Shown: one piece after another, positions 3,001-64,000 of the stretch
Numbering within the stretch: position 1 is the stretch's first letter
Layout: the number at the start of each line of letters is the position of its first letter
From: Azolla caroliniana
Lineage: Eukaryota; Plantae; Polypodiophyta
Reading direction: 5' to 3'
Length of the DNA stretch: 64,000 nt
NCBI GenBank assembly: GCA_043228905.1
Contig: JBHGNT010000012.1
Span: 13,888,001-13,952,000 of the forward strand
Program-made: the position numbers and the translations under genes
Notes under the pieces: generated by a model
The model's database searches: none
Seen by the model: only the letters and a program-made list of their open reading frames with translations
Told to the model about the DNA's origin: nothing

Positions 3001-5766
3001 GACGGAACGGTGTCGTAGTGTATTTCGTACACTACATGAAAAATGTATGGAGTACCCAATTCAATAAATATGAAGAAATAGAAGAAAATATTAAAATATC
3101 TATTACATGCATAGGGCAAGATTCGAACCTTGTACCTCCATGTTAAAAAGATGAAGCCTTACCAAAATACTAACAAATCATGAGTGTTAGGAAAATAGAT
3201 ATCCCACATAGAAATGTTATTTTATGCATATTTTCTAGGATAAACTTTTAGTAAAAGAAAACGCTTTATAGAAAAGAGCTACATATGCACATCTAGTGTG
3301 CATGAACACTAAAGTTTGATAAAAAAAATCCATAAGGTTAGAAAAAACATGAAGTTTAGAAAAAACATAAAGTTTAGAAGAAAACATATAGTCTATAGAT
3401 AGTTAGAGAAAAATCAGGATTGGTAAGACTCTCTCATCACTATATAAGGATGGGGAGCATAATGTAATGGGGGATAGAAAATTATGGATAAAAAATCATT
3501 AGAGCTCAAAAATAATGTTTAATAAAATAAACTATGCTTCTAGGATTTACAAGTTTTCTATATCTTTCTTTTCCAATCTATTCTAATTTATTATTAGGGT
3601 TTTAAATATTAATAAAATAAATAAATTATACTCGTGGGATTCACGACGTTTCTATATCCTTATCTTTTAATCTAAATTCATATTCTTATCTAAATATTGA
3701 TTAATAAAATACATTATACTTGTGGGATTCACAAGTTTTCTATCTCTCTTTCCTATAATATACTCATAACTAGATTTGCCTCAAATTCTTCCTCCTCCTA
3801 GTCCAAAACCCCAGCGGTTCCCACCCGATTCACGCAACGATATGGTGCCAAAAGGCACGACAATTGGTGTCCATCATTCGGAGCCAAAATGGGCATGCTT
3901 CCCATTCCGTAATACCGAGGCGGTTACACATGGCTTTATTGATCACATTCACCCCAAAGCTGCCATCAATAATGCGGCCGACGATTTCCTGCCCTTGTAG
4001 CACCGCCTTGATGGCTGGATTGTGGTGACCAACCACGGCTAGGCCTGTGCCAAACTCTGTATAATTGGCCGAGATCTCTATTCTGTCTATGCCCCGTAAC
4101 CCGTTTTCCACGGTCTGCCAGAATCGAGGGACAAGACTTAATAGTTTGTCCATGGTCAGCGTAATTTCACAATCGACTAGTGCTTGCTATATAGGGTCTG
4201 GCACCAATACCATGTCTTGCATATGTGTGGTTGTGTGGCCAGACTCTTGTCGCATGCGTTCCACATTGGCTTCATTTGCCTTCTCTACCCAGGCTTCTGC
4301 AGCTTTGCGGATCTCGTCTTGCTCCGCCCAATCCGTGTTTTTCGCCTTGCTGTGGGTTGTAACCTGCCGGACTTCCGCCATGATCCGTTCACCACTAGCC
4401 CTTTCCCTTTATCGCGTCGTGGGCATTACATTGCGTGATGACCTTGTTGTTGACAAATAAAACAGTGAACGTTGGACTCACCTTTTTCGACAACCAAGGG
4501 TACCATGGTTTCTATCGGAGCCATCTGTTCTTCCCGGGGTCTCTGAAACCTCCTGTTGTTACGAGGCTTCTAGTGATACTCGCGACGACTATCCTGGCAC
4601 CGTTCTTCCTCCGAGAATTCGGCGTGGGATCGTTGGTTTCATGGCTGGCGATTACCTCCATACGAGCGGGGTTCCGCCTGACCGCCGCGATTGTTTGTGG
4701 TACGCTAGTTATTGTAGCGGCGCCCTCCTTGATGATTGGAACGGTCATTTCTCAGTAACTCCTCTTCTTCTTGCTCCTCTTCATCTGAATATGAATCATT
4801 GTTGTGATGGAGACGGTTCGACTGACCCATCCGCTAATTTCGCTCTATGTTATGGTAGCGCTCCTCCTATTGATCTTGGTCGTTGTGGCGGTAAGTCTAC
4901 TAAGGCTCCATATGGCGGATTGGAGGTGTGGGCCTATTCAACATGTTACATTCGCATTGATCCACCGTGTGGCTCGTGAATGACAAATGGGGCAATGGAT
5001 CCGCATGTTGCAATCCACCGCGGATTGCCTGGAGTTCAAGCAGATCGTGCATTGAATGGCTTGGCAGAAACGGTATTCCTCATCCTTGGGTAGTGCTTGA
5101 CGCAACGTTGTCATAGACATCCCATCGTCCTCCTCTTCTAACTCGACTTGTAATGCCCGTTCTATTACTGTGTCCGCCATTTGGTCCGTTAAATTTTGCA
5201 TATTTAACATTGCCCGGAAGGGTCATTGTAATGCTGCCAAAAATGTTTCCTTTGCTTCATCCTCCGTCAGAGCGCATGCTAACTATCGCTCTAAACTTTG
5301 GAAACGTAGGCTGAAATCAGCCACAGACTCTTGCGGGAGCTGTTTGACCGTATAAAATTGGCCGATGATCTCATGTTGGGGAATGCTTCTATGAAAGAAG
5401 CGGAAAAACGACGATTGAAGTTGGTCGCAGGAGATAAACGATGCGATGTCGAGCTGGGAATGCCAATGGGCAGCTTGCCCATCCAGGCTTAACCCAAACA
5501 CCACGATTTTGGAAGCATGGGGTTCCGCTTCCAGTAGTCGTTGTGACATATGGTTTGCGTTTGAGACATTTAGAAATACTACGCTAGCTCTTTACAATGT
5601 TCCCATGCCCTTTATATATACAGGGCATAGACGGTTACGCTTAGTGCGTGAACCGTTACATGCATTTCTACTTTCTAACGTCTCCATCATTATGAGGCTA
5701 CGCTTATACACTAGTCTACCTTAATTCCCGCCTTGTTTCTCACTAGTTCGTCTCGGGCAGACAACA
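1..5766 (-). mobile_element. Degenerate Ty3/gypsy LTR retrotransposon (partial 5' LTR, gag, PR, RT, RNase H, IN); runs off the left edge of the window
   Basis: Minus-strand ORF pieces lie in gypsy order. gag is at 5549-4938, protease IIDGSFGVNVI at 4153-3830, RT (RVCVDYSKLN, MFGLKTA, VFLTDF) at 2448-1529, RNase H (VFVDASDVAIG, YLTTEHEAFG) at 1466-1173, and integrase (HYAGDIT..CDLCQ, GLDFVGPF, ISDQGSHF) at 863-1. The outer LTR end TGTTGTC is at 5766, with a TATA near 5610. It is inserted in the gag of a copia element. Confidence 0.92.
3011..3862 (+). mobile_element. Solo LTR (TGTCGT...CACGACA family) inserted in the gypsy protease
   Basis: Terminal inverted repeat TGTCGT/ACGACA and a TATA box near 3441. 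Flanks are ACGG (3007-3010) and ATTG (3863-3866), a degenerate 4-bp TSD. Removing the insert plus 4 bp restores the host frame MDT-RSVKPLGLVR. Confidence 0.8.
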
Positions 5767-6704
5767 CATCTTCAAAAATAAGAACGTCGTGAACTGAGTC
5801 TCAGTATTTCGAAAAATCGTGAGGCTCCGGATTCAGGATGGCTCCAGTATGGCGGAGCACATCAATGCCTTCCAAGGGTTGATGAACCAAACCACCTCTC
5901 TAGAAGTACCTCTAGCCGACGAGGTATTAGCACAGTTGTTGCTAGGATCCCCTCCAAACAATTGGGAGACGCTCGTTGTCACTTTGGGCAACGTTGGGCC
6001 GGAAGGGAAGCATTTATCCCTAGAGCAGGTGATGTCAAGCTTGTTGAATGAAGAAGCTCGCATGAAGGACCGTGAGTCCAATACCGACCAAAAGGCCTTA
6101 GTCACGGAAGGTGACACGATTCAGGGTAGAGGCCTAAATCGAAGTCCCCAGAACCGAGATAAATCGGGGACCAGGTCGAAGTCGAGGAGGAGGCCCACGT
6201 GCTTCTATTTTGGAAAGCCGGGGCACTTCTAGAATAATTGTTGACACTTTCGAAAGGATAAAGGGGGAGTTGATGGCGTAGAGCCAAAGAAAATCCCTCA
6301 CAAAAAGAACACCTCAACAATCACCGTGAGTGAGGAGGAGTTGTTGCTCATTAGTGAGAAAAACAAATTCGGGTGCGTTGTTTCTCCTAAGCCCTGACCA
6401 AAAGTTCTTCTCATCCTATAGAGCCAGATGTCGGCATTTGAGATGTCTGTTTGGAAATCTCAACCGGGTGTAGACTCGTGTTGAGAGATGTACGACACGT
6501 TCTGGAGGTTATAATTGAACCTAATATTAGCCAGTCGGATAGATGATGAAGGCTACACGGGTAGCATTCGGAACAATGTCATGAAGTTCTGGAAGGGAAG
6601 TCTGATCATGCCTCAAGCTTGGAAAACCAACACACTGTACATAATGAATACTTGAATATGCCGAGGGGAAGAAAACATGGCAGTCGACACGGTCAGTAAA
6701 CTAT
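5767..6704 (+). mobile_element. Ty1/copia fragment (gag to GAG-pre-integrase) of an older copy that hosts the element at 6705
   Basis: ORF 5819-6232 (SMAEHINAFQGL..SLLNEEAR..CFYFGKPGHF) is a close paralog of 6790-7740. It ends at DTVSKL and resumes as (W)HRKLCHM at about 12205. Confidence 0.85.
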
Positions 6705-10270: not shown

Positions 10271-10961
10271 TGTCGTGAAGAAAACCGCCCACAAGAGGAA
10301 TCGGAGGAGCAAGGCGTGGGAAACGGCTCTACACACACACGCGCGCCAAGAAGTACCTAAGGACGAAGTAGGTACATACGAGGATCCGAGGTGGGAGATT
10401 CGGTTGGTATGCAGTTAATACCAAACGGCCTCCTGACGGGCTATAAAAAGGAGGAGGAAGAATAGAAAAAGGGATCTCGCGGGGAGAGGACGAGGTGCTG
10501 CCGAACCGATTTCGGAGCTCCTCTCTCACTCCTGCTTTCTCTGTCTTCTGCTCCATCGCGTACCTGTGCAGGTTTCGAGGAGGCTTGCGCTGTTCCGTGG
10601 AACGCCCCGAGTGCGTCCTGCAGCACCTCCGACCTGTTTTCCCTTTCTGTGCGTCGCAACATACAGGGGTCGGCATCTGTTCGCCGCCCCGTCCGTTTCG
10701 TTAGTATCTATTCCGTGCCCCACCGCGGGTTGTAATACTTTGGTCTGTTATTTCCTTGCATTCATAAGTACATATCTTCCGTTGTTGCGTCCATCTGCGT
10801 CGGCGTTTGTTTGTGATCTCTGTTTGTTGGGCCGTGTCCCTGTGCAATCTTCGGTTCTGTGTAATCGGGTCTCTCTCTTACTCCGCTCTCTCTTGCTCTT
10901 CGGTCCAAGACCCCCGTGGTCCCTCCTCCTTTCTGCACGCAAGGGCGTAGCAACCCCGACA
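10271..10961 (+). mobile_element. Solo LTR (TGTCG...CGACA family) with a perfect 4-bp TSD ACGC, inserted in the copia RT/RNase H linker
   Basis: ACGC|TGTCGTG...CCCGACA|ACGC, with TATAAAA at 10442. Excision restores HWNAVKWILRYLKG. Confidence 0.93.
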
Positions 10962-13856: not shown

Positions 13857-14602
13857 TGAAAACAACAGGTAATAACACAATGATATATCAATAATCTTAA
13901 AAATAAACAACGGAAACCTGAAAACTAAGGTAAAGTTCCACAAAAGTAGGCGAAAATCACCCGTTTAGGGTTGTAATGTTACATAAAAAACATTGAGAAA
14001 ACTGCCAAAAAATAGCAAGAAAGTGACCAATTCTAGTATATTGATCATGAAAGTCCCCCTTTCAATGAGAGGTGAAAACTTGACCAGGGAGGCGAAAACT
14101 GGAAGTCTTGGTTGCTTTGTGCTCCTGTGCTCTTCTGTTGCTTGAACACCATAATGACAATGAGAAGATGACTTCCCCTTATATAATTTAGTTTTTTTTT
14201 TTTTTTTTTTTTTAATTTAAAAAGAAGAAGAAGCGTTTGGACATGGTGCTTATTATAGAACTAAACTTTGAGCCTATTTTGGACTCTCATGATCTTACTA
14301 GGCTTACTCAAAATGTCCTCAAACTTGAGTACAAATTCTCTATTTTCTATTGAGCCTTTTTAAGTATCTTGTAACAGTTATTCTCAATTGAGGAATATAA
14401 CCATGTTAATAATAAACGGTGCCATATAAAGTCAAACGATTATCTAGAGCAAAGTTCGACGTCACTTTTTTCGATAGAGCCTTTTAACTTAGGTAAAATA
14501 AGAAATATTAAAGTAGATACAAATCATGACAAGTCTAGTTTTTCGAATGTTGACGACGACTGTGTCAACAAGCCTCAAAATTTTCGAAGAGTTCCTCAAC
14601 AA

Positions 14603-28015: not shown

Positions 28016-28912
28016 TGTCGTGAAGGATTCCGGCCATAGGGGGAAACGAAGCGAGACGCATGGGAATGGGTGTATACACGGATGTACAAAGTTTAGCCTT
28101 TATGTCTGAAACATGTAATAACATTGGACTAGTAACTACTAGGTAGTAGGGTTAATGGGCACTTTAAAGACCCGCATGGATAGAGAGGAATGTGGGAATT
28201 TGACGTTACGGAATCGAGGAAAATCTCTTTCGGAAGTGGCTGACGTAACTACCTGATGTAACAACTTTCTCTCTCTCCTTGAGCTATAAAAGGAGAGAGA
28301 GAAGACTGAGAAAGGGATTCAAGAATTAGGAGGAGGAAGTGTTGTCGGATTGAGCGCCGAGTTCTCTACATCTCTCTCTCTCTCTTCCCGTCTTGTGCTC
28401 TGCACCGTTTCGAACAAGGAGATGAAGTCTCTACTCACACTGGCAGCCCGTGTGCTCCCAAACGGAGATTCTTTGTCTTGTCTCCATGTGTGTGTGTGTG
28501 TGTGTGTGTCTCTCTCTCTCCTGAGAGTGCTAAGTGTTGTTGCTGGCCGCGCCCGGTTGTGCTCCCCTTTGTTGGGGTTTCTACGTGGCTCCTACTTCTC
28601 GTGTGTTGGTCGTGCTCTGAGCTCGTGTCTTATTCCCATCCTGAATCTGTTGTGTGCATGTACGAGTCCGCGAGCCTGTGCGCTTGTCGCTGCTCCCCGG
28701 CATCCGGACTAGGGAAATATACTCCCTCAGGCCAGCGAGCTGCTCCGCTCCGCTCCGGGTACCGTTCCGTATCCGATACGCAACCAATGACCAGACTAGC
28801 GTAGCCATCCAGACTGTGACACGGTCCTCCCTTCCCCCATATTCCGAATCCTTTGTCTGAGATCCCAATGGTCCCATCCTATTTCTATGCATCCACACGG
28901 AAAACCACGACA
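28016..28912 (+). mobile_element. Solo LTR (TGTCGTG...CACGACA) with a perfect 4-bp TSD ACGG, in the copia gag
   Basis: ACGG at 28012-28015 and 28913-28916, TATAAAA near 28285, and a U5 motif GTCTGAGATCCCAATGGTCCC near the right end. Confidence 0.92.
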
Positions 28913-30081
28913 ACGGTACGGGCCAATCCATACGGCAATTTGCATCCAGGAGAAGCCATCGTCCTTCTTCAACTTGCAATCAATGATGATGGTCAAAGAA
29001 AACCACGCTAATGGGTCAAGGACCACTCAATCGGACAACCGGATGTTGTACACGGAGGCGGATCAGCCCCGTGGGCGTGGAGGACATGGTGGGTCGGCAC
29101 GCAAGAGCGGCGGCCGGCAAGAGCAGAATCAAAGGCAAAGAGACAGTGGTTCCGAACCGTCCACAAGCAGGGAGAGTCAAAGAGGCACCGGAAACCGGCA
29201 ATCAAAGACCTAAATAGAATGTTGGTATTGTGGCTAGGAGGGCCACTGAGAGAGAGAGTGTTGGAAGAAGTGTGTTGATTCAGATAAATCTGGATTCGGC
29301 AAGGCCGGACATGGGAATCGGCAAAGCTCACACTACGTCGAAGGATCAAAAGGATCCAGAACCGGAAAAAGGGGCAACCTTTGTGATGAAACACAAGGCG
29401 AACTCAATGAAGAAGACCACTTCCAGATCGGAGGAAGTGTAGTATGTTGACTCCGGAGCATCAAACCACATGACGAGCCATGAAGAGTGGTTCTCATTTT
29501 TGGAAAAGCCAGAGCAACTAGGAGTTGTCGAAACCCGAGACAACACTCCTCACCTGATCATGCATGTCGAAGAAATTCCCTTGAGTCATGTCAGACAAAA
29601 AGGGAAGTTTATGAACATTGCCGCGTTATTACGCGTGTGCGTGGAGAAAGGCGGGACCACAGGGGTCTTGGACTAGGGAGTGACGGAGCGTAGGAAGTCG
29701 TACTTCACCGTTTCCGGGACATCCCAAAAGCACACCGGAAGCAACCAAAGGGAGAGAGAGAGAGAGAGAGAGAGAGAGCGCTTAACACCGACTCACGCAC
29801 ACACACACACATGCCGACCCGACTCACGCCCTTATGTACAGGAAACGCAGGAAAGGGCAAGCACCCGACACCAACAGAGACGCGAATATACACAGACAGA
29901 CGCAAAAGTATATATATAAAAGGAAGAATACATTCCCGGCATCAAGCCGGACCAAGGTAGGTTACAGCAGTCGCCTGCTGTCAAGCCGCCGTCGAGGAGC
30001 TCTCGGCTCGTCGCGCCGAGCGGGGTCTTGCACAGGAGGCCGAGCCAAAGCAAACCCTAAGCAAAACACGAAGGGGGAAGA

Positions 30082-34780: not shown

Positions 34781-37298
34781 AAGAAGAAGAAGAAGAAGAA
34801 GAAGAAGAACCCTAAATCTAACGGTATACCCTCTAACGCAAAATGGGCAACCCCTTCACAAAGGGCGCTCCCTTCCTTTTATAGAACAAGGAGAGGGATG
34901 CGTTACAATGTGGGATAAATCCCAACTTACATGGGATTGTCTGTCCCGACTTGACTACTCTTCGGCACCATAAAGGCGCCCTCGTTATTCACACTAAATG
35001 TACATGGGTGCATACTCACACTGCACCCCGCTGATGTAGCCAATGTTTCCCGGTTTCCGCCTCTGGCCGAAATTCTTCACGACATCCGCCCCCACCTAAC
35101 CGCACATCCACCGGTACGTGCCAAATCCGGTGAAAGGTGAGAGATTTCGGCCGGTGAGAAACCGGTCTTCCGCGATCCGCATCCCGACTCGCTGCCGGTT
35201 TGATCCGTCGGCTTCGATTCTTCCTTCGCGCTTACCTCCCCGTAGGTTCGTTCAACCCGTCGATGGGTCCTCTGCCGCGATCTCCGTAGTACGCGTACTT
35301 CCGCTGGCCCTTGTTCGGCCGTATGAATGCCCCGCTCCCCGCCGTATGCTCGATGTCCTCCGTTGAGCATTTGTGTTGTCCTGATTGTCGTCCCATGTTG
35401 TTTCGCATTGCCTTCGTCCTCTCGCCGCCACCTTCCTTCTCCATGGTCTTACATCGTCGCGTCGGCTCGAACCGCCATGGTCTCCTGAACGGTGTGGAGG
35501 ATCCTCCTCGGCCTTCTACGCACTACCTCCGAACCGCGCAACTCATCCCCGTGCTCGCCTTTCTGCTCCGGCACCTCCGTGTGCCACATTCACTCATCCG
35601 TTGTTTGGCACTAGCTGTGCCGTACTCTGGTTCATTGCACGCCTTGTCGGCCTGTTTCCCGGCCAGATCGCGCATCGCCACTCACCCGCATATTGGTGTC
35701 CTCCGCACCCGAGGAACACCCCGCTTGGCCCCTCCCGTCTTCGTGCTGCTGCAGCAGGTCCTGAGTCTTCCGCTTGCCGTCGTCCCCTCGCCCCCACCAG
35801 CTTGTCACCCCGGGCTTGCCGTGTTAGTCTTCGCTACTTCGACGGAGCTACCGAGATCTATGAAGCGAGTGTGGAGGATCCTCCTCCGGCCTCTCTTGCC
35901 ATCCAATGACTCCGACCCTGTGCTGTCCACTAGGCACCCGTCACCTCGTTCCCAGCACCTCCCTTGTGCCGTCTTTCGCTTCCTTCGTTCGGCACCGTCT
36001 GTGCCGAACACTGTCCCGTAGTCACGCTTTGATCCGGCCCACGATGGCCACTTGCGAGACTCTTATTCCGTCCTAGGTGTGCCTTTCCGGCCCGTCACAC
36101 CTCCTTGTGTTTGCCCCTACCGGCTCCTTCCGAAACAGTAACCGGCCGGTGAGGGTTTTGCACTTCGTCTGCCCCGTCTTACCGACTCTCGATCCGCTAC
36201 CTCTTGTCATTGGGTCCCATTCCCTGCCGCCACCGTCCTTCTCCCTAGGTCTCACGTTGCCACGTTGGCCGAACTGCCGGAGTCTCTGGATCGGTGTGAG
36301 GGTCCCATAAGACCTGTCTTTGTTTTGTCGCTTGCCGAGATCTGGGTGTCTTTCGTCGGAGTCCTTCACGACTCTCCTCGTGTCTTCCGCATAGTCGGGT
36401 CCCGTTTCCCGCCGCCACCAACCTTCTCTCTCGGTCTCATGTTGCCACGTTGGCCGAACTGCCGGAGTCTCTGGTTAAGTGTGGGGATCCCGTAGGACCG
36501 GACTTCCTTTCGCCTACTGACCTTGTCGGAAGGTCCGATTCAGTTCGTAGCCGCTTCGCTGGCCTGATACCTCCTTGTCGTTCGTCGCCTCCTGTCGTCC
36601 GATCACGTTCTCCTGCCGCCACCGATCTTCCCTATAGGACTCACGCCGGCTCTCGGGCCGACTGCCGAATCGGTGTGAGGATCTCCGTAGACCGCCCATC
36701 CGTAGCCCTTTTGCCTTCATCACCTCGCTGCCACCGTCAGTATCTTGGTCTTACGTCGACCGCGTTGCCGACTGCCGAAGTCTCTAGAACCGGTGTGAAG
36801 GATCCTCCTAGGGCGCTCGTTTTGTCTTCCTGACCCTGTCCCGGGTCGTCCCTTTCCGCATGTCGAGAGGGCGGGGTTTACTCCGCACCCTCTCCCGTGG
36901 TACCGACGTATCGTCTCCTCGGCCTCTTTGTAGGCCGGCTCTCTTCCTCCCTTCCGGAATAGTCATCCGGGAGTCCGCTCCGCCCGGTTCTCGTCCCGGT
37001 CACCGCCCCTTTTAGTCGTGTCGGTGGATAGCATCCGCTCTGTGATCAATCAAGCCCCGCCTGAGCTTGATTCTCTAATGTCCGGAGTTTCGGCTCCTAT
37101 GCCGACCTTGCCAGACTCGTTCTGAACCTTTAATCACCTTCCTTCGAATTCTCGACCTTCGCCCGGTCGGTCTTTCTCCCCATGTAAAAGAGGGCGGCTC
37201 GTCCCGCACCCTCTCCCGTATCAGCACCTTTATGCCGATTCTGGCCCCGATCGAACCATCCACGATCGGATTACGCTCCATCCGAATCGGAATGTCGA

Positions 37299-38669
37299 TC
37301 ATCTCGTACCGCTTCCTTCCTCGGCCTCCTCGCAAGTCGTTCCCCATCCATCTTCGCTGGCATCGTGCCAAGACTCCTCTGTGCCGCCATCCATCTCCTC
37401 GGTCTTACATGGGCATACGGGCCCGAATGCCGAGTTCTCCGGAATCGGGTCTGAGGGCTTTCGTCCGTTCCTTCCCCGTATCGTCTCGCTGGTGATTCTT
37501 GGTCCTTCGTCGCCACCTTCCTCCGGTTGGGACTCACATGGGCACTCAGGTCCGACTGCCATCGTCTCGGGAGCAAGTGTGGGAAGACACAAAGAATCGC
37601 CCGTCTGTTTTACGCCCTTGTCCGTAGCCACCGACTCTTCGTGGTCGGTGGTCGTCTTTTTACCGATCGCGCAAGCCCCGCCTGGGCTTGCTTCTCTGAT
37701 GTCCGGGGTTTCGGGCTGACACGCCCGAAACCACCGGTCCCAACTATCCGGTTCCGCGATCAGTATCTCGGCCTCGTCCTTGGTCGTTCTATCTCCGCAA
37801 GTCGAGAGGGCGTTTTGTTCCACACCCTCTCCCGTGGTACCATCGTACCGATCTTCCGCCGTCGCGTGGGGCAAGTCCGTCTCCTCAGTCTCGGCTTGCG
37901 GCCTTGATCTTTCCTCTTCCTCGAGCATCGCCTCGAGAGCTGCGTACGCCTCCGCAATCCTGGCCCCAACACCGACCCTTGCCAGCTCTCTTTGCCGTTC
38001 AGCCTCTTCCTGCTGTGATGGCACGCCGTCACGCCCCTTCCTCTTAGCCTTCTCAGCTCGCTCATCATCTAGCCGTTGGCACACCCTTCCGACCTTCGAC
38101 CAGTCCTCCGTAAGCCCATTCGCTCCGTCGTCGTCTTCGAGCTCAATCCCGATGTCCTCCCGTTCCACTCGGTCAATCGACCTGACGAACAATAGGACCT
38201 TGTCCGTCCCCACCAAACCTTGTTCCCGCTCCGGGAGCCGAGCAAGCCGTCGCTCGAACTCTCGGAATGCCTTCGTCGCGCCCCGGTGGGTCTTTGCCGA
38301 TGCTACCCACTGGTCGAAGTCGTGTCGTCCCCGGCTCTTCCGCCGTCCTCCGTATGCCTTCAAGAGCGCCTCTTCAAAGGCCTCCCACGAACTATGAGCC
38401 TCACGGAGCCCCTTTACTTCCGCATGCATCCGGATAGCTACGACCCGACAGAAGAACTCCAGCCTCAACGCCTCGTCTACGCCGCGCTCCTCCATTTCCG
38501 CATTGTAGGCTTCCAAGTAAGATGGGACTTTGTCCCCGTTGAAACGGCCGACTCTTTCGACCACTCGCTCGACCGCTTGTTGCGCTGCTTCTCGCCTCAT
38601 CACCACTGGTGCCGACTCCAACACCACTTCGGCCACCATCACCGCGAGGTCGTCTTCTTCCGACTTCAT
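37299..38669 (-). CDS. Gag-like (Ty3 capsid-type) protein, 456 aa, with an acidic tail
   Basis: The ATG is just downstream of the PBS. RFNGDKVPSYLEAYNAEM..RLEFFCRVV..SWEAFEEALLKAYG..KVLLFVRSID..GLTEDWSKV is clearly homologous to 60995-62896. Confidence 0.8.
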   Translation of the reverse strand: MKSEEDDLAVMVAEVVLESAPVVMRREAAQQAVERVVERVGRFNGDKVPSYLEAYNAEMEERGVDEALRLEFFCRVVAIRMHAEVKGLREAHSSWEAFEEALLKAYGGRRKSRGRHDFDQWVASAKTHRGATKAFREFERRLARLPEREQGLVGTDKVLLFVRSIDRVEREDIGIELEDDDGANGLTEDWSKVGRVCQRLDDERAEKAKRKGRDGVPSQQEEAERQRELARVGVGARIAEAYAALEAMLEEEERSRPQAETEETDLPHATAEDRYDGTTGEGVEQNALSTCGDRTTKDEAEILIAEPDSWDRWFRACQPETPDIREASPGGACAIGKKTTTDHEESVATDKGVKQTGDSLCLPTLAPETMAVGPECPCESQPEEGGDEGPRITSETIRGRNGRKPSDPIPENSAFGPVCPCKTEEMDGGTEESWHDASEDGWGTTCEEAEEGSGTR

Positions 38670-38686
38670 CCTCCCTTGCCGCCTTG

Positions 38687-38702
38687 CACGTCGGGTTCAC
38701 CA
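38687..38702 (-). promoter_or_regulatory. Primer-binding site complementary to the tRNA-Trp 3' end
   Basis: TGGTGAACCCGACGTG lies just inside the 5' LTR and is complementary to the plant tRNA-Trp(CCA) end ...CACGTCGGGTTCACCA (tRNA sequence recalled, not looked up). Confidence 0.85.
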
Positions 38703-41700
38703 AAGATGTCGCGTTATTACGCGCGTGCGTGGAGAAAGGCGGGACCATGGGGGTCTTGGACTAGGGAGTGACGGAGCGTAGGAAGTCGTACTTCACCGTT
38801 TCCGGGACATCCCAGAAGCACACCGGAAGCAACCGAAGGGAGAGAGAGAGAGAGAGAGCACTTAACACCGACTCACGCACACACACGCACACACACACAC
38901 ATGCCGACCCGACTCACGCCCTTATGTACAGGAAACGCAGGAAAGGGCAAGCACCCGACACCAACAAAGACACGAATATACACAGACAGACGCAAAAGTA
39001 TATATATAAAAGGAAGAATACATTCCCGGCGTCGAGCCGGACCAAGGTAGGTTACAACAATCACCTACTGTCAAGCCGCCGTCAAGGAGCTCTCGGCTCG
39101 TCGCGCCGAGCGGGGTCTTGCACAGGAGGCCGAACCAAAGCAAACCCTAAGCAAAACACGAAGTGGGAAGAAGAAGAAGAAGAAGAAGAAGAAGAACCCT
39201 AAATCTAACAGTATACCCTCTAACGCAAAATGGGCAACCCCTTCACAAAGGGTGCTCCCTTCCTTTTATAGAACAAGGAGAGGGATGCGTTACAATGTGG
39301 GATAAATCCCGACTTACATGGGATCGTCTGTCCCGACTTGACTACTCTTTGGCACCATAAAGGCGCCCTCGTTATTCACACTAAATGTACATGGGTGCGT
39401 ACTCATGCTGCACCCCGCCGATGTAGCCAATGTTTCCTGGTTTCCACCTCTGGCCGAAATTCTTCACGACAACGTGCTTAACATCCCAATGATCACAAAG
39501 AACCTGGTGTCGGTAAGTCAGATCGTCGACCAGGGGATGCAAGTTCTGTTTACGCACCTCGGGTGCTTCATTGAGGAAGAGGTCCCGATCATCGCGCAAG
39601 GGCGTCGGGATAGGAGGATGTTTATCCTTGACACCACCGACGTAGGCACCGCTCTGTTCTCAAAAGGACAAAAGGTCGAAATGGTAATCGACATGTGGCA
39701 CAAGCGGATCGGCCACGTCAACTATCAGAGGCTTTAATTGAAACAAGTTGTTTTCAGATTGTCGAAATTCAGAGGCTGGAAGGCCCAAATATGTGAAGCA
39801 TGCGAGCTCGTGAAGCAACACCGCCTTATGTTCCCCACCGAAAGAAACCGGAGCCGTAACAAGTTGTATCTAATACATTTGGATGTATGGGGACCGACAC
39901 ACAATGTTAGTGTTGGCGCGAGCCGATATTTAATCTCCTTCATCGACGACTATAGCCGGCACACATGGATCTACCTAATCGAAAGGAAAAGTGAAGTTTT
40001 CTACTGTTTCCGGAACCTGCAAAGTCTTGTCAAACGGGAAATGGAGAGTAAGGTCAAGTGCATGTCTTCGGATGGCATAAAGAATATTTTTCTAGCCAAT
40101 TCAATAGTTATCTGCAACAGAAAGGATTTCGGAGGGAATTCAGCTGCCAATACACACCGGAACAAAATGGTGTGGATGAAAGGAAGAACTGGTCAATTGT
40201 GGAGGCGGCACAGGAAATGCTGGAAGAAAAGAGCATGCCCAAATTCTACTGGGCCGAAGCGGTCCGGACGACCATCTACATCCAAAACCGGATCGGGGGT
40301 AAGGTGTCAACACACGAGCTATATTTCGGGCAGAAGCCGAATTTAAGGCACCTTAGGATATTCGGTAGCATAGCCTATGTGCATGTGCCAGATGAGAAGC
40401 GGAGAAAGCTGGATTCGAAGTCGGAGAAGTGCATCCTTGTCGGCTACTCACATGAGCAAAAGGGTTATAAGTGCTATATCCCCCGAACAAAACAAGTTCG
40501 AGTGAGCCGAGATGTCAAATTTGATGAGTCGACATCATGATACTCTCTATCGACTCCGATGTCCAATTCCGACCCGATTCCGGAGGATGAGGCTAGTGAG
40601 CCCGAAACAATCCAAGCAGAAGATGAAGAAGGATTCGGTACTCTATATGAGAGTCTGATCTCATTCTGGCTAAGTGAGCTGAATGAGCGACTGAGTCGGA
40701 ATGACCAGTCATATGAAGAGTCGGCGAGTAGTGGTGACTCGACCTTGTTCTCCTCGCGCAAGGAACCGAGGAGACAGTTCACGCACAAAAAGAAGGGGAA
40801 GAAGAAGATGTCGGAGTATGCCACCGGCAGAGACAAGTCAGACTAGAGCGAGTTCGACTCTAGACAAAGCAGAGATGGACCTTTGGAAGAGAATTTCGAG
40901 TCGGCCAAGAAGGCCATGAAATCGGCGAATCAAAAATTGTGCCGATCCACCCGCCAGAAAAACCCCGCGAAGAGGTACGGATATAACAAATATATGGCGC
41001 ATCATTATGCGTACATGGCGAAGGTGGCAACCGAGCATGAGCCGAATTGGCTGAAGGCTAAGGACCCGAAAGCGGCTAAGGACCCGAATTGGCTGAAGGC
41101 CATGGAGGAAGAGATGCACGCTCTCACGGAGAATGAGACGTGGGACTTGGTGGACGTACTAAAAGGAGTGAAGCCCATCGGTTTCCGGTGGGTATACAAG
41201 GTTACATACAACACCGACAATTCCATCAATAGGTACAAGGCCCAGTTAGTGGCCATAGGCTACCCACATCAACATGGCATCGACTACGATGAGACGTTCC
41301 CACCGGTCGCAAAGATGACGACCGTCCCTGTCCTGCTTGTGGGGCCAGTGGCGAAGGGGTGGCATCTACATCAAATGGATGTAAAGAACATGTTCCTGCA
41401 AGGTGATCTTCAAGAGCAGGTGTATATGGTTTAGGCCCCCGGATTTCAGTTTGGAGTGAATACATCGGCGATGTGCCGATTGAAGAAACCGCTCTACGGA
41501 CTCAAGCAAGCCCCCGCGCCTAGAACGCGAAGATCACGAAGAGCCTATGTCAGATGGTGTTTGCTCCGTCGAAATTAGACTCTTCACTCTATCAGCCAAG
41601 GTCCCCCCCCCCCCCCCATGAGCAACCACTATCTTCTCCTGACTCACTACGTCAGATGGTTGCCTAACAAGATCATCATGAAATAATAATTTCTTCCCTT

Positions 41701-42089: not shown

Positions 42090-42909
42090 TGTCGCGAAAA
42101 TACGACGAGGATACGTGAACTTGAGGCAGGACCCCGGCGCCTCCGATGAGAGGATATCAGATTCGTGCGTTTATACTTTAAAGAATTAACAAAAATCAAA
42201 AAGTTTGACAAATTTCATTATGAAAGGAAAAAAAAATTACAATCTATCCCAAGATTGGGATTGCAAAAGTTTTAGCTTACAAAGGTTAATAGATTAAGCT
42301 TTACGAAATATAGCTTAGATAATAATAAAAATTAAGGATTATCAAGAGATAGATTAGATAAGGAAAATTAGGGTTCTTGAGTGTTATCACTTTGATAAGG
42401 AAATTAGGGTTTATGGCTTCGATAAGAAAATTAGGGTCCTTGAGTGTTATCGCTTTCATAAGGAAATTAGGGTTTATGGCTTCGATAGGAAAATTAGGGT
42501 TCTTGAGTGTTATGGCTTCAATAAGATAAGGGAGCAGAGAACAAAAAAGAAAATGAAGAAAAGAAGAGAGTGGAATATATATGGGTTTCTTTGTTGATCA
42601 TGCCCTTGGTGTTCCTTTCCATCCCCACTTTTTGTTGGATGGCCTCTACTTTTAGTTGGATGCAACGTCTTTATATTCGGCCATATGATCAATCATCCAT
42701 AAAGTTCGGTCCGTGCGTAATCCGTACATGCGTCGCGACCGAACATGCGTGTGCGCGCGTCCACCGAACCGTGTGTCCCTTGACTCTAGGATTCATTTGA
42801 GTCTAAGGATCCTTGCAGTCCAAGACCTATCATCCACACCCTTTCAACCCTTGTGACAAGACCCCAGTGGTTCCTCTCGAGTAGCACAAGCACACGCATT
42901 ATCACAACA
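42090..42909. mobile_element. Composite LTR-derived insertion flanked by ACGT/ACGT
   Basis: 42090 to about 42700 is the reverse complement of the 3' half of LTR 47351-48712. The right end CAAGACCCCAGTGGTTCC...CACAACA resembles the U5 end of LTR 60293-60955. ACGT occurs at 42086-42089 and 42910-42913. Confidence 0.65.
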
Positions 42910-46213: not shown

Positions 46214-46275
<62 letters not shown>

Positions 46276-46420
46276 ACGCAAAAAGCAGCCCTCAAGAAAA
46301 AGCAAAAAGCAGCTGACCAAGAAAAAGCAAAGAGCACCCCATAAGAAAAAGCAAAAAGCAGCAGCAAAAAAAAAACGTGAGGTTTTTGCCAACGTTGACG
46401 TGTCGGCATTGGGCTGGGTT
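43790..46420. repeat. Unclassified ~2.6-kb interspersed repeat, copy 1
   Basis: Direct repeat of 49791-51890, starting TTGCTCCAATATTTATTTGAA and ending CGTTGACGTGTCGG..TTGGGCTG. Confidence 0.85.
46218..46270. repeat. (AG)n microsatellite, much longer than in copy 2 (about 51670-51685)
   Basis: Directly visible in the sequence. Confidence 0.95.
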
Positions 46421-47350: not shown

Positions 47351-48712
47351 TGTCGTGTGAATCTTCTCACACTATGTAAAAAATAACAAAATAATTATTA
47401 TAGATTAGATTAGTAGCTTACTAGAGAAAGATGGATATACTCAAGAGCTTCAAAATGTATTTTACTATATACAAAATGGAGAAATACATATCAAGTTATG
47501 TGAAAATAAAGTTTGAGAAGATAGGGAAATTAGAACTATCCCACATAGATAGGAAAGTTAAGGCCCTGACTATATAAGCACCTTGAGCTCCCTCATTTTT
47601 CATTTGTGCTAATTGCACTTTGGACACTTTGTTTTGATGGATGATGGTGACCAAATTCCCTAAATCCGGAAACCAGTCAGTAAGCAAATCCGGAAAACGG
47701 GTCCGGTAAGCAAATCCGGAAACCGGCCGGTATCCAAACCGGAAACAGGCCGGTAAGCAAAACCGGAACCGGAAACCGGCTGGTAAGCAAAACCGGAACC
47801 GGAAACTGGCCGGTATGCAAAATCGGAACCGGAAACCGGCCGAGATGCAAAACCGGAACTGGAACCGGCAAGAAAAATTGGAACCGGAACCAGCAAGCAA
47901 AACTGGAACCAGTCGGTAAGCAAAACTGGAACCGGAATTGGAACCAGCTGGCAAGCAAAATGGAACCGGCTGGCGAGGGATTCGGCGATCGGGCGAAACC
48001 GGTGACCGTACGAGGTTGGACGCAAATCGAACGGATAAAAGGATCATGTGGCTATTTAAAGAAAGGTAAAAGAGACTAAAGTAAAGGTCAAGTGGACGGT
48101 CGCATGCAACTAAAGAAAAAGCCATGCAACTAAAAATAGATTCAACGAAAAGAAAAGCTATGCAACTAAAAGTAGAGGCCATGCAACAAAAAGTGGAGGC
48201 ATATGATCAACGAGGAACTCCATATATAATTCCATTTTTTTTCCTATACGGAGGGGACTCTCCATATTATCTCGATTATTTTTCTTTTCGTTCTCAACTC
48301 CCTTATCTTAGGGAAGCCATATCTCTCATAAACCCTAATTTCCTTACGGAATCCAAAAACCCTAATCTTCCCTACAGAAGCCATAACACTAAAAAATGCT
48401 ATCTCCCCTACGGAAGCCATAATACTCATATAACCATAATCTCTTATCAAAGCCAAGAACCCTAAATCTCTATGGAATCCATATCTTAGTTTCTTCTAAT
48501 CTATTATTCTAGCAATCTCCTTAAGATAAAACTTTTGTAATCTCAATCTTGAGATTGATTGTACTCTTTCTTTCCCTTTATTAATGAAATTTGTGAATCT
48601 TTATCATTTTGCATTAATTGTTTAATATAATCATATGAATCTAATATCTTCCAGTCAGAGGCCCCGGGGTCCTGCCTCAAAGTTCACGTATCCTCGTCGT
48701 ATTTTCGCGACA
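47351..48712 (+). mobile_element. Solo LTR (TGTCG...CGCGACA, 1362 bp) with a perfect 4-bp TSD GCGG, in the copia RNase H
   Basis: GCGG at 47347-47350 and 48713-48716. Excision restores HFVHERVLTGEVEL. TATTTAAA is near 48053. Confidence 0.92.
47663..47972. repeat. Degenerate ~30-bp tandem array (AAGCAAAACCGGAACCGGAAACCGGCCGGT) in the LTR U3
   Basis: About ten imperfect units rich in AACCGG. Confidence 0.85.
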
Positions 48713-49516: not shown

Positions 49517-49790
49517 TTAGATGATGTCTAGGTCCTAGCCGCCATCGCCACTTATTCCGACTTGTGCCAACTTTCTTGTCTCCCCTTGTTTGTCAAGGTA
49601 TGGCAAGACTCGAACCCATGACCTTATGTTACATGGGTCGAGCTTTTGACCATTAGACTATATGTTGTAATACGAAGGATATTATTTTAATTTAAGTTTT
49701 ACTATAGAAAATTGATGTATATTCCAGATTTCTCGAGAACATTCTAGAAACTTTAGGAGTACTCCTGAGGACACTATAAAAGGAGGCACA

Positions 49791-51920: not shown

Positions 51921-52451
51921 TGATTGTTTTGAAACACGAAGGAAAAAGCAGAAAGCAGAAAGCGAATGGTTTTTTCTGTTTTCCGCGTGTTTTTTTTTTG
52001 TTTAAAATTTTAATTAATTTAGGGTTACAGGTCAACAACAGGACACAGAAAGAAAGAAGAGACAGAGGGATTAGCGACGACGACAGAGGTCAAAAAGAAG
52101 AAGAAGAAGAAGAAACAGAAACAGGGGAAGGAAGGAATTGACGAAAACAGAGAGGGGAAGGAAGGAAGTAAGGGTAATTAAGAAGATAGGGACAAAGGAG
52201 AGAGAAGAAGAAGGAAGAAGAAGAAGAAGAAGAAAACTGACATAAGGAGAAGAAAGAATCGAGACCGGTGCGAAAGAAGAAGGAAACCGAGGAGAGAAGA
52301 AGGAAAGATAGGAATAAAACAGTGGAAAGAAGAAGGGTAGGAAATTCTGGACAGCGTAGACAGATAAGTCGGAGTGTTTTTATCAAATCTCCGAGGAAGC
52401 GGAGTATTTCTTGATCGACCGATTCGGAGTGTGTGTGTGTGTGAGAGAGAG

Positions 52452-58772: not shown

Positions 58773-60426
58773 GTTTCACGGAAGGACTGAAGACAGCCAT
58801 GACGGAAGGAGAACCATCACTGGCACTGGTACTCTTCTCGAATCCGAAGGAGGGACCAACGGTGGTGGACACCAACAATCCGGTAATTACTGCCATTGTA
58901 AAAGGGAAAGAATTCCCCGGCACAGTAATAGACGGAGGCTCCGGTGTGAATGTAATAAGCCTCCGGACGTGTGATGCCCTGAGAATCCACGAGTGGGAGC
59001 CGTGTCCGTTTTGGTTACGGATGGCCGATACAAGCTCAGTGCAGCCGATAGGATTAATACGAAAATTAGAAGTCACCGTTGGTGGTCATACATTTCACAT
59101 CTTGGCAGTAGTGCTACAATTACAGGCACAGGGCGCGTACCCGCTATTGCTGGGGCGGCCGTGGTTGAAAACGGCACATATCAAACAGAATTGGAGGAAA
59201 AATATAATTACCTTCCAGCAAGGAAAAGCCAAGGTACGTGTACCAACACAGCCAAGGACGAGCACTGGCAAGGAATGTACACCGTTGTATGCAGAGTGCG
59301 TCAACATGCTAGAAGGGTTAGCTGACGAAGAAGAAGCTCAGTACTTGCAGGAAAACCCGAAGATCGTACCCCTCTTTGAAATTGACATTGCCAAAGTAGT
59401 AGCACCATACTTACCGCAGCCGGAAGAGACTGAAGTAGAACCGGATAAGGACGCAATCCGAGAGTTACGGCAAGCGCAAGAAGCGTTGGAACGGGAAATG
59501 GCCGTTTCACAGCGCGTAAAAGCGTCGCAACTTGAAGAGGTGAACCTAGGGACCACGGACGAAGCAAAACCGGTGCACATCGCCAAGGAGATGAAGTCCG
59601 AAGACAAAACGGCGATGATCACGCTTCTCACGGAATTTCGCAACGTGTTTGCCTGGTCATACGAAGACATGCGAGGGCTCGACCCTCAGTTATACCAGCA
59701 TCAGATTATATCCCGGCTTTTATGCAGGTTTTCCTTGACGATTTCGCCGTCTATAGCCGGGAAGAGGATCATTTGCAGCACCTCCGTCTTTGTCTAGAAA
59801 AGTGTAGAGCATACCGGCTAAGCTTGAATCCGGCGAAGTGTGTATTTGGCGTGTCTAGTGGAACCCTACTAGGACATATTGTGAGCAAGGAAGGCATTGT
59901 AGTCGACCCGGACAAAGTGAAAGCCATATTAGAAGCACCGGCGCCGGCAACGACAAAGGCATTGAGCCGGTTCTTAGGAAAGATCTGGTGGCACAACCGG
60001 ATGCTCCGATACTTGGCTGACCTGGCTACACCATTGCATGCCGTTGTACATCGAACACCATTCCAGTGGACTGACACCGAGGATAGGGCGTATAGGGTCC
60101 TCAAGGTACTATTGTCGCAAGCACCGGTAGTGAAGCCTCCGGATTGGAGTAAAGAATTTCATGTGTTCGTGGACGCCTCCGACATCGCAATCGGAAGCGC
60201 ACTGATGCAGCTTACGGAGCCAAAGTGGTACCGGCCAGTGTACTATGCCAGCCGAAAGCTATCCCAAGCGGAACAGAACTACTCTACCACGGTGTCGTAA
60301 TGTGGCATGTCTAGTGCGAGAAAAACTCAAAAATTGAGGATCCACACACATTTCACGAATACTTGTAAAAATGAAAATAAATAAACCTAGGTCACAATGG
60401 CATTGAGTGCATGTAGAGGGTTGCAA

Positions 60427-60484
60427 GTAGGATTTGAACCTTGCACCTCTAAGGTAAGAGGCAATTACCTTACCACTAAAGCTA
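60427..60484 (-). promoter_or_regulatory. tRNA-derived Pol III box A/box B cassette, antisense within the LTR U3 (second copy at 63433-63490)
   Basis: The minus strand reads TAGCTTTAGTGG (box A) TAAGG..CCTCT tacctt AGAGG..GGTTCAAATCC (box B), with tRNA-like spacing. Confidence 0.6.
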
Positions 60485-60961
60485 CTACTAAGTGCTTTAG
60501 ATATTCTATATTTCTTTCTCATATTCAGTATTCCGTAGGAAACGAACGAACAAAACCGTGTACACAAAACCACAGTTTTAAGCCCATGGTTTCCTACATG
60601 TCACAAAGCAAAACTGTGTGCACAGAAACCATGGCTCCAAGCCCATGGTTTTGTGCATGGACAAACCTATAAAACCCCTAGTATGGCTTGTGTAAGGGGG
60701 GGCTCAATATGATATGACCATCATCATCACCATCAATAATATAAGCTTCTATTTCTTCTTCTTCGCATCTATCTTGTAATTATTTATCTACTTCTGAAAG
60801 TGTACAATCTTCAATCTTCTCAAGTGTAATAGGTCTTCCTCCAATCTTACATTCACATCGTCCTCTTCTCAATACCTTGACGGACATCCTCCTTGGTCCA
60901 AGACCCCAGTGGTCCCGCTCAAGCGAAGCACGCTCGCACGCACATCTTCGCGACATTTTTT

Positions 60962-60979
60962 TGGTGAACCCGACGTGAA
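60962..60979 (+). promoter_or_regulatory. 18-nt primer-binding site complementary to tRNA-Trp
   Basis: TGGTGAACCCGACGTGAA begins 6 nt after the 5' LTR. Confidence 0.88.
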
Positions 60980-60994
60980 GAGCGGTAGGGGAGG

Positions 60995-62896
60995 ATGAAG
61001 CTGGACGAGGAATATCTAATGAAGGCAATGTCAAAGATGATGATGGAGTTTTCAAGCGAAGGGAAAACACGACATGCGGCCCAACAAGCCGTTGAAAGCA
61101 TGATCAAGCGAGTCGGGTTTTTCGATGGAGGCAAAGTCCAAAAATTTCTAAAGGCCTACAATGCCGAAATGGATTCAAGAGGAGCGGAGGAAGCAATGAG
61201 GCTGGAGTACTTTTGTCGAGTGGTGGCCGAACCAATCTTCGAAGAGATTAAAGAGATTCAAAAAACTCACGATTCGTGGGTGTCCTTCAAAGAAGCTTTA
61301 CGAGAGTCATATGGTTACGAAGAGCAAAAGGGACGAGGTCTGTATGAGTTTCACGAATGGGTGTCATCGAGAAAGACCCACCAGAGTGCTATGCATGCAT
61401 TCGTTGAGTTTGAGTATCGCTTCGCTCAACTCTCGGACCGGGATCGAAGATTGGTGGGGGTGAATAAAGTTCTGATGTTTGTAAAGTCAATCGATCGGAA
61501 TGAAAGGAAGACCATTGGAATCCAACTCGAGGATGACAATGGTGAAAATGGCCTCACTGAGGATTGGGCCAAAGTGGAAAGGGTATGCCGACAACACGAT
61601 AAGAGGGAGATGAGACTCTCATCGACAACAACACGACCCACAAGGGATGTTCAAATGAGAATGGGATGTGGCAATAAAAACCCACTGAAGGAAGAAAGCT
61701 CGAAGAGGGAAGCTTCGAAAGAACTCAACATAGAAGCCTTGATGAGAGAGGCAATAATGAACTTAAAGGCACAAGTCGAGGTTGAAGAGAAGCTGAAAAC
61801 AAAACCAAGGAAAATGGTGATCGACGAAGAGGAGACCTCCCGACAAATGCAAACTAATGGTACAGCCAATACGAAGGCCCAGGTTTGGTATGACAGTACC
61901 ATGGGAGAAGGTGTGAAACAAGCCACCTTCTCAACTTATGGAGGAACGACGGTTGAGAGAAGGGCCGAAGACTCGAGAGCGGGAAATGCTGCTTTAAGAG
62001 TGGACGAGCATTTCAGAACACATGCTGTGTCCGAAATATCGAGTAATGAAGGTGCAAGCATGAGGGAAGCTTGCGTGATCAAGGGATGTAAAGAGTGCGA
62101 GCTCGACGTGATTGAGGCGGTAGCCACGAGAAACGACATCAAGTCGCAGATGGCTAAGGAAGAGTTCACGGCGGATGACCGTGTCGAGACTTTCCCAACA
62201 CTTGATCTAGAGACTTGGGAAGTTGCGTCCGAGAGCCAACATGAGACCCAAGAGACGGAAAGTGGTGGGGAAGAAAATATTGAAGACAATGCGAATAACA
62301 ACATTGAGCGAAAGATGGCTACGGATGAGAAGACGGTGACCGATGGTGTCGAGGTTCTCCCCACATTTCTTCCTGAGACTTCGGCAGTTGTGCCCGAGTA
62401 TCAACGTGAGACCGGAGAGACGGAAGGTGACGGCAAGAAATCGAAGGACCAAAGTGGCAATGAGGACGATAACCACAGACGAAGGGATCCCTCCACACTG
62501 GTTCCGAAGACTTCGGCAGTTGTGCCCGAGAGCCAACGTCAAACCGGAGAGATGGAAGGTGGCAGCGAGGAGATGAGGGTCGAAGCCGGCGCATACAGAG
62601 GAACGGTTGCCAACAAGGAGGCCAAAAACAAAGCTACAATAGAGTTCGATGAAGAGCCAAAGAGCGGCAAGAAAGGAAGAACCGGAATACAATCCGGATG
62701 GAAGATGACTCGGTTGGTATTCCGACCCGAACGGAAGCCGACCCGGACGAGAGTTGATCAACCAGGCCCGACCCAACTGAAAACCGGACAGAAACTAACC
62801 CGGACGAAAGTCGATCATCTAAGTCCAATTCGGCCGAATGTGAATCCGAACGAAGGCCGACCAAGCCAGAAGTTGATTGGTCGAGATCGATCCTGA
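60995..62896 (+). CDS. Gag-like protein, 633 aa, open frame; capsid-like N-terminus plus a repetitive acidic tail
   Basis: FFDGGKVQKFLKAYNAEM..RLEYFCRVV..SWVSFKEALRESYG..KVLMFVKSID..GLTEDWAKV, homologous to 37299-38669. No CCHC knuckle and no protease motif were seen. Confidence 0.85.
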   Translation: MKLDEEYLMKAMSKMMMEFSSEGKTRHAAQQAVESMIKRVGFFDGGKVQKFLKAYNAEMDSRGAEEAMRLEYFCRVVAEPIFEEIKEIQKTHDSWVSFKEALRESYGYEEQKGRGLYEFHEWVSSRKTHQSAMHAFVEFEYRFAQLSDRDRRLVGVNKVLMFVKSIDRNERKTIGIQLEDDNGENGLTEDWAKVERVCRQHDKREMRLSSTTTRPTRDVQMRMGCGNKNPLKEESSKREASKELNIEALMREAIMNLKAQVEVEEKLKTKPRKMVIDEEETSRQMQTNGTANTKAQVWYDSTMGEGVKQATFSTYGGTTVERRAEDSRAGNAALRVDEHFRTHAVSEISSNEGASMREACVIKGCKECELDVIEAVATRNDIKSQMAKEEFTADDRVETFPTLDLETWEVASESQHETQETESGGEENIEDNANNNIERKMATDEKTVTDGVEVLPTFLPETSAVVPEYQRETGETEGDGKKSKDQSGNEDDNHRRRDPSTLVPKTSAVVPESQRQTGEMEGGSEEMRVEAGAYRGTVANKEAKNKATIEFDEEPKSGKKGRTGIQSGWKMTRLVFRPERKPTRTRVDQPGPTQLKTGQKLTRTKVDHLSPIRPNVNPNEGRPSQKLIGRDRS

Positions 62897-64000
62897 CAGA
62901 AGTTGAGCCGGCCGAGACAGAGGTCGAAGCAAACGAGCCACGACATCCAGTCAAGGTTGTTGAGCATAAGGAAAGGCAAGCATGAGACGAGAAAGGATGA
63001 TAAAGGAAAGTTAAGTGACCAAGGAGATGGCCGAGATGAAGGTGGCACATGCACGAGGCATGAAGCGTTATGCTCGGGAGTAGCACAGGGAGCCATGACA
63101 ACTAGACATGGCAATAAAAAAGGTGAGCGAATGATATGGTGGATCGGATGGCAACGACAGTTCGAAGTAGACGACAAAAAGACGGTGCAGACGAGGCACA
63201 AGAAAGGAGGAAATCAAACACCAACCACCTTTGACCCTTCCACATCACTCTTTTCTTCTTGGCACATACCGGAGGATGTGCGGTTTGGTGGGGGTGGATG
63301 TCGTGATGTGGCATGTCTAGTGCGAGAAAAACTCAAAAATTGAGGATCCACACACATTTCACGAATACTTGTAAAAATGAAAATAAATAAACCTAGGTCA
63401 CAATGGCATTGAGTGCATGTAGAGGGTTGCAAGTAGGATTTGAACCTTGCACCTCTAAGGTAAGAGGCAATTACCTTACCACTAAAGCTACTACTAAGTG
63501 CTTTAGATGTTCTATATTTCTTTCTCATATTCAGTATTCCGTAGGAAACGAACGAACAAAACCGTGTACACAAAACCACGGTTTTAAGCCCATGGTTTCC
63601 TACATGTCACAAAGAAAAACTGTGTGCACAGAAACCATGGCTCCAAGCCCATGGTTTTGTGCATGTACAAACCTATAAAACCCCTAGTACGGCTTGTGTA
63701 AGGGGGGGCTCAATATGATATGACCATCATCATCACCATCAATAATATAAGCTTCTATTTCTTCTTCTTCGCATCTATCTTGTAATTATTTATCTACTTC
63801 TGAAAGTGTACAATCTTCAATCTTCTCAAGTGTAATAGGTCTTCCTCCAATCTTACATTCACATCGTCCTCTTCTCAATACCTTGACGGACATCCTCCTT
63901 GGTCCAAGACCCCAGTGATCCCGCTCAAGCGAAGCACGCTCGCACGCGCATCTTCGTGACAACGGAACGGGAAGCTCTAGGGATGATCTACAGTGTGACA

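What the first reader, a model, noticed from the sequence alone, without database searches (positions are those of the whole stretch)
3007..63965. An LTR family whose 4-bp target sites all have a central CpG (RCGN)
Seen: seven insertions with TGTCG...CGACA-type ends have scorable 4-bp flanks. They are ACGG/ATTG (3011, degenerate), ACGC (10271), ACGG (28016), ACAT/ACGT (29619), ACGT (42090), GCGG (47351) and ACGG (60293). In the six that sit in host ORFs, removing exactly 4 bp plus the insert restores the reading frame. The 5-bp-TSD elements in the same window (CTTAT, CTATC, GATTC) show no CpG. Established: most plant LTR elements make 5-bp TSDs with weak sequence preference. Inference: this lineage's integrase reads CG, possibly methylated CG, at the centre of the target. 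That would steer insertions into methylated TE bodies and away from genes.
Basis: partly seen in the sequence, partly recalled or inferred. Interest (0 to 1): 0.82.

Follow-up and report, generated by a model that had tools for sequence, protein, structure and literature searches.

The report
Phygy-like retrotransposons inserting at CG sites
These plant retrotransposons do insert at 4-base sites with CG in the middle, but they likely belong to the moss 'Phygy' lineage, for which that preference was published in 2019, and nothing here shows that the CG has to be methylated.

Summary
All seven insertions sit at the stated places with the stated flanks, and removing insert plus 4 bp rejoins six host ORFs. 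It replicates outside the window: 18 of 19 genomic 5' flanks of related LTRs in public contigs have a central CG, against 4.7% background. Corrections: the consensus is VCGB, not RCGN (C is common at position 1; T next to the CG occurs in 1 of 58 strand-wise positions, 32% expected). These are several families, not one. The 42090 insert is two back-to-back LTR 3' ends, so its TSD is unproven. The autonomous partners are Ty3/gypsy elements without chromodomain or extra RNase H, with relatives in Physcomitrium, Riccia and Adiantum. Likely mechanism: the integrase reads the CG step where it kinks target DNA. Methyl-CpG reading and gene avoidance are untested; the one gene holds only 2% of usable sites.

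The parts
3011..3862 (+). Solo LTR (A) in the protease region of a minus-strand gypsy host; flanks ACGG/ATTG (degenerate)
   Evidence: its 3' end matches PBS-adjacent LTR ends in L002, L116 and others
10271..10961 (+). Solo LTR (B) in copia RT; TSD ACGC
   Evidence: 65-87% identical over most of its length to PBS-adjacent LTRs in 8 loci
28016..28912 (+). Solo LTR (C) in copia gag; TSD ACGG
29619..39471 (-). Gag-only element (D) in a copia host; LTRs 96.2% identical; TSD ACGT with one decayed copy; 3' LTR 29619-35084 split by a LINE at 30083-34779
38707..39471 (-). 5' LTR of D, followed by the primer binding site near 38702
37299..38696 (-). Gag-like ORF of D, 465 aa, no pol
   Evidence: 34-40% identical to the Gag N-terminus of autonomous partners
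42090..42909 (.). Insert E: a minus-strand LTR 3' portion (related to F) joined back to back with a plus-strand LTR 3' end; ACGT on both sides, but a single insertion is unproven
47351..48712 (+). Solo LTR (F) in copia RNase H; TSD GCGG
60293..63961 (+). Gag-only element (G) in gypsy RNase H; LTRs 60293-60955 and 63299-63961, 98.6% identical; TSD ACGG; polypurine tract just before 63299
60962..60979 (+). Primer binding site of G, complement of an 18-nt CCA-ended small RNA listed as miR894; assignment to tRNA-Trp is recalled
60989..62896 (+). Gag-like ORF of G, 635 aa, no pol
   Evidence: 31-37% identical to autonomous Gag N-termini

Best explanation
The seven inserts are solo LTRs, gag-only copies and one LTR chimera from several families of one Ty3/gypsy lineage, likely Phygy, and they sit at 4-bp sites of consensus VCGB, likely because the integrase reads the central CG step directly. 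Shown: 4-bp flanks with central CG in the window and in independent contigs; a shared primer site; autonomous relatives with Gag-PR and an overlapping RT-RH-INT frame. Inferred: those relatives mobilised the gag-only copies in trans; the integrase cuts with a 4-bp stagger, which needs a sharp kink at the central step; CG is a pyrimidine-purine step that takes the kink; base contacts narrow the choice to CG and exclude a neighbouring T. Insertions then fall wherever VCGB is plentiful, which here means CG-rich retroelement coding regions, with no need for methylation.
For: (window); 18 of 19 independent 5' flanks have central CG (background 4.7%, binomial P 2e-23), the other is ATGG; 3 of 3 retained 3' flanks do too; loose-end consensus at an LTR 3' end over 28-43 contigs per run ends CCGA, CCGG, ACGG, CCGG in four runs; partners lack chromodomain and aRH; relatives in Riccia, Physcomitrium, Adiantum. 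PMC6317226 text and Additional file 5: Phygy = 4 bp NCGN, tRNA-Trp 81%, n=186. PMC4422553 passages: 4-bp-stagger integrases favour a central YR step, largely independent of chromatin. Ginger1 uses CCGG/CCGT/ACGG; a Drosophila errantivirus subgroup uses CGCG. The five host regions hold 65% of VCGB sites on 38% of the length.
Against: No REXdb Phygy RT was available, so the defining tree placement was not made; the Physcomitrium hits are Gag/PR only (48-57% best identity) and are not labelled Phygy. No Physcomitrium protein is named among the top 120 RT-RH hits. Flexibility alone predicts any YR step (TA, CA, TG), so the strict CG needs an extra readout that I did not show. All six ORF-hosted inserts lie in LTR-element coding regions (about 7% by chance at a 65% share), which leaves room for chromatin or methylation bias. 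The partners come from unnamed contigs of the same or a related plant, not from the window.
Confidence: 0.8

Rival explanations
1. The integrase, or a cofactor, prefers methylated CG, so the NCGN rule is a reading of DNA methylation that steers copies into silenced repeats and away from genes.
For: All six ORF-hosted inserts lie in other LTR elements. Phygy is often nested in Tcn1 in Physcomitrium (PMC6911290 passages). Flank copies show CG-decay-type changes (ACAT/ACGT; ATGG in L052). A 1992 paper title on CpG methylation affecting retroviral integration in vitro was seen only in a reference list.
Against: The hosts are CG-rich (CpG o/e 0.9-1.0), while the CG-poor elements and the gene (o/e 0.4-0.8) carry no insert, which CG supply largely explains. 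Decay can postdate insertion. A CGCG target exists in Drosophila, which has almost no CpG methylation (recalled). Pfam finds no methyl-binding domain or chromodomain in four partner Pol proteins. Avoidance of a flanking T points to sequence readout.
Confidence: 0.12
2. The elements belong to a separate non-seed-plant gypsy clade (TatI-like or unnamed) that shares the 4-bp TSD and tRNA-Trp primer with Phygy.
For: TatI is also 4 bp and tRNA-Trp. The four partners form their own supported clade (96/94) apart from the Physcomitrium and Riccia proteins in the protease-region tree. One full unit in L013 is about 7.3 kb, slightly under the Phygy range.
Against: TatI is defined by aRH (100%), and no RVT_3 hit or room for it was found. 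NCGN is reported for Phygy alone. The Physcomitrium and Riccia homologues are about twice as close (50-57%) as the host gypsy (22-27%).
Confidence: 0.07
3. The pattern is a selection artefact: the reader kept only inserts whose flanks fitted.
For: n=7, chosen by eye; two pairs are degenerate and one insert is a chimera.
Against: The end sweep found no other member in the window. Start calls made from probes that contain no flank gave 18 of 19.
Confidence: 0.01

Closest known systems
Phygy (REXdb non-chromovirus Ty3/gypsy lineage; Neumann et al. 2019, PMC6317226)
   Same: 4-bp TSD with central CG, tRNA-Trp-type primer site, no chromodomain, no aRH, element size about 7.3-7.9 kb versus 7.7-10 kb, Gag/PR homologues in Physcomitrium patens.
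   Different: Described there from P. patens only. Here it is several LTR families, many solo LTRs and gag-only copies, and the target narrows to VCGB. RT-tree membership was not tested.
TatI (REXdb OTA/Tat)
   Same: 4-bp TSD and tRNA-Trp primer.
   Different: TatI carries aRH and has no reported NCGN rule; the partners here have no aRH.
Selgy (REXdb)
   Same: 4-bp TSD, non-chromovirus, overlapping reading frames.
   Different: tRNA-Ala primer, about 5 kb, no NCGN rule.
Ginger1 DNA transposons (PMC2836005)
   Same: Gypsy-type integrase, TGT ends, 4-bp TSD CCGG or CCGT/ACGG, all of which fit VCGB.
   Different: Animal cut-and-paste elements with terminal inverted repeats and a narrower target; no LTR, PBS or RT.
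Drosophila errantivirus subgroup with CGCG target (PMC5408687); PFV-type 4-bp intasomes (PMC4422553)
   Same: Sequence-biased 4-bp targets; central step distorted during integration.
   Different: CGCG has GC, not CG, as its central step; PFV accepts any central YR step.

Membership tests
Phygy | 4-bp TSD | tested here: met
   defined
Phygy | NCGN target motif | tested here: met
   7 of 7 in the window on at least one side; 18 of 19 in independent contigs
Phygy | tRNA-Trp primer binding site | tested here: met
   PBS at 60962 and 38702 is the complement of a CCA-ended 18-mer; that this 18-mer is the tRNA-Trp 3' end is recalled, not shown by a call
Phygy | Ty3/gypsy order RT-RH-INT without chromodomain | tested here: met
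   Pfam on 3 Pol proteins and 1 Gag; 60-72 aa tail after GPY in 4 Pol proteins; tested on partners, not on window elements
Phygy | No aRH domain | tested here: met
   no RVT_3 hit at E 0.01; RH-to-INT spacing about 120 aa
Phygy | Length 7.7-10 kb | tested here: inconclusive
   L030 7,859 bp with mismatched flanks (probably a chimeric assembly); first unit of L013 about 7.3 kb
Phygy | Falls in the Phygy clade in an RT-RH-INT tree | not testable with these tools
   REXdb sequence files were too large to read; only unlabelled P. patens Gag/PR homologues were available
TatI | aRH domain | tested here: not met
Selgy | tRNA-Ala primer site | tested here: not met
Ginger1 | Terminal inverted repeats of 40-270 bp, no LTR or RT | tested here: not met
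   direct LTRs, PBS, PPT and gag in D and G

The most novel reading that the evidence does not exclude
Phygy-type integrases, spread across mosses, liverworts and ferns, read a methylated VCGB site, so DNA methylation itself, not a chromodomain, is their guide into silenced repeats; Ginger1 transposases may share the same target code.
Probability: 0.12. Interest if true: 0.72.

Novelty: new member of a known kind. Interest (0 to 1): 0.22.

Why it matters
As it stands this extends a published but little-followed rule: one paper in the library holds 'LTR retrotransposon' with 'NCGN'. It shows the rule across several families in another plant and sharpens it to VCGB, which helps annotate solo LTRs and gives intact integrases for a bench test. 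It would matter much more if the integrase distinguished methylated from unmethylated CG, since that would be a chromodomain-free route to self-limiting insertion.

Tried and rejected
No whole genome is held, so the genome-wide logo could not be built. The window's two host gypsy elements were considered as the autonomous partner and rejected: their Pol is only 19-27% identical to the PBS-linked Pol outside two short integrase stretches. P0011 (1518 aa) is a duplicated Gag, not Gag-Pol. GingerRoot has a 6-bp TSD and is not relevant. A P. patens TE paper had no 'TSD' or 'methylat' passage. 'DUF4100' is in no paper of the library. The atlas gave only generic gypsy Pol clusters and could not place the host from the thioredoxin exon. 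Cluster look-up named no organism. No empty-site joint for insert E appeared among the rows shown, which is inconclusive. The protease-region tree is mostly unresolved, the outgroup branch is long, and three selected proteins including the Adiantum one dropped out for lack of the anchor motif. Two look-ups of earlier findings returned nothing.

Full report
Observation. The window is nested plant retroelement DNA (43.8% GC, CpG o/e 0.85); no whole genome is held. Four are exact pairs (ACGC, ACGG, GCGG, ACGG), one has one mismatch (ACAT/ACGT), one has two (ACGG/ATTG). Removing insert plus 4 bp rejoins recognisable host peptides in six cases; this fixes the length modulo 3, and the matching 4-mers fix it at 4. 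Contigs of public runs carry the empty paralogous site at 60292 with one ACGG. A sweep with LTR 3'-end probes found 132 ends in loci and window; 13 lacked a primer site, 8 of them in the window, all from these seven inserts. The three 5-bp controls exist.

Corrections. Self-comparison links only E with F, so these are several families sharing termini, primer site and Gag. Insert E has an LTR 3' end facing outward on both sides. At 42090, loose ends of public contigs include the primer-site complement, confirming a 3' end; contigs cross 42909 at low depth. Its ACGT/ACGT may be two independent flanks of a palindromic site.

Independent test. Their LTRs are 65-87% identical to window LTRs over the longer matches, so they come from the same or a related plant. 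A first method called 26 LTR starts among 65 upstream regions of 400 nt or more (39 uncalled): 7 followed a polypurine tract, and 17 of the other 19 had central CG. A second method, using probes that contain no flank, found 37 starts in loci: 17 after a polypurine tract, 1 at a contig edge, 19 with genomic flank, of which 18 have central CG and one is ATGG. It did not reproduce one weakly supported call of the first method (L018, TGTG); counting it gives 18 of 20. Background CG in those flanks is 4.7% (P 2e-23). Three 3' flanks read ACGT, ACGG, ACGT; I dropped L011 (degenerate primer site) and L105 (look-alike 39 nt inside an LTR, flank TCGA). In four runs (three samples), the consensus of 28-43 loose ends at 42090 ends CCGA, CCGG, ACGG, CCGG, with agreement of only 0.44-0.47 and primer-bearing contigs mixed in.

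Refined motif. Position 1 is a purine in 13 of 19 independent flanks, so RCGN fails. Over 29 CG sites read on both strands, the base 5' of CG is A 29, C 14, G 14, T 1, against 32% T among window CGs (P 4e-9); keeping L105 would make it 3 of 60. The consensus is VCGB. Most of these sites are one-sided flanks.

Identity. D and G encode Gag only. Loci L013, L017, L025 and L030 hold intact Gag-PR and an overlapping RT-RH-INT frame behind the same primer site; D and G Gag match these at 31-40%. Pfam finds RT, RNase H and integrase, no chromodomain and no aRH, and the tail after GPY is 60-72 aa. The nearest named RT-RH relatives among the best 120 of 474 hits are Riccia sorocarpa proteins at up to 72%. 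The Gag/PR region hits six Physcomitrium patens, three Adiantum and one Riccia protein among the best 120 of 697. The primer site is the complement of the CCA-ended 18-mer listed as miR894 (passages of PMC5846777 and PMC6678167); its assignment to tRNA-Trp is recalled. The host plant was not identified; a non-seed plant is likely from these relatives.

What is known. [quoted passage not shown] Its Additional files 1 and 3 could not be read; they may already show VCGB and hold the reference sequences. PMC6911290 (passages) reports GC-rich centres in 4-bp TSDs and Phygy nested in Tcn1. PMC12885004 (passages) reports Phygy in a liverwort. PMC2836005 (passages) gives Ginger1 TSDs CCGG 75%, CCGT/ACGG 24%. 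Searches for 'Phygy', 'NCGN' and CpG/methylated/insertion-preference terms listed no paper whose title or abstract start addresses methyl-CG targeting by this lineage; I opened only some of the hits, and subscription papers are mostly missing.

Mechanism. PMC4422553 (passages) shows that 4-bp-stagger retroviral integrases kink the central step, favour pyrimidine-purine there, and do so largely independent of chromatin. CG is such a step. By inference this integrase adds base contacts that fix CG and exclude a flanking T. Placement in repeats follows largely from supply: the five host regions hold 65% of VCGB sites on 38% of non-family length, and the one gene holds 16 of 756. The methylation reading is not excluded, but no call supports it over plain sequence reading.

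Verdict. A real, replicated target preference, already published for the lineage these elements most likely belong to. New member of a known kind, with a small refinement (VCGB). Interest 0.22.

Noticed in passing
L013:186-11295; also L078, L029, L040, L042, L044: LTRs with a polypurine tract before them and a primer site after them. In L013 an autonomous unit is followed by a gag-only unit across a shared LTR: either true tandem elements or assembly collapse of repeats.
   Followed up: partly
L030:3970-3983, L017, L025, L013 (end of gag-PR frame): All four partners end the Gag-PR frame with GGATTT(T/C) just before the stop, a likely -1 frameshift site placed after the protease rather than before it.
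   Followed up: partly
window 30083-34779 and 21929-22066: A LINE (RT ORF 30762-33530, minus strand) splits D's 3' LTR at a GAA-rich tract; a related short piece sits in a copia 3' LTR at a TC/TTC tract. This LINE may favour purine microsatellites.
   Followed up: partly
window 42090-42909: Two LTR 3' ends back to back with ACGT on both sides: a deletion between two opposite insertions, or integration of an aberrant cDNA with two U5 ends.
   Followed up: partly
window 60962-60979 and 38685-38702: The primer site is the exact complement of the small RNA catalogued as miR894, which is likely a tRNA 3' fragment and could act on this lineage's RNA.
   Followed up: partly
window 43787-46419 and 49788-51898: A two-part duplication at 88-93% identity upstream of the thioredoxin-like gene.
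   Followed up: no
window 52300-54800: Multi-exon thioredoxin-like gene with a CGSC active-site motif, the only evident host gene in the window.
   Followed up: partly
window 14300-17000: Decayed ORFs with a DUF7869 match, probably a DNA transposon; CG-poor and free of these insertions.
   Followed up: partly
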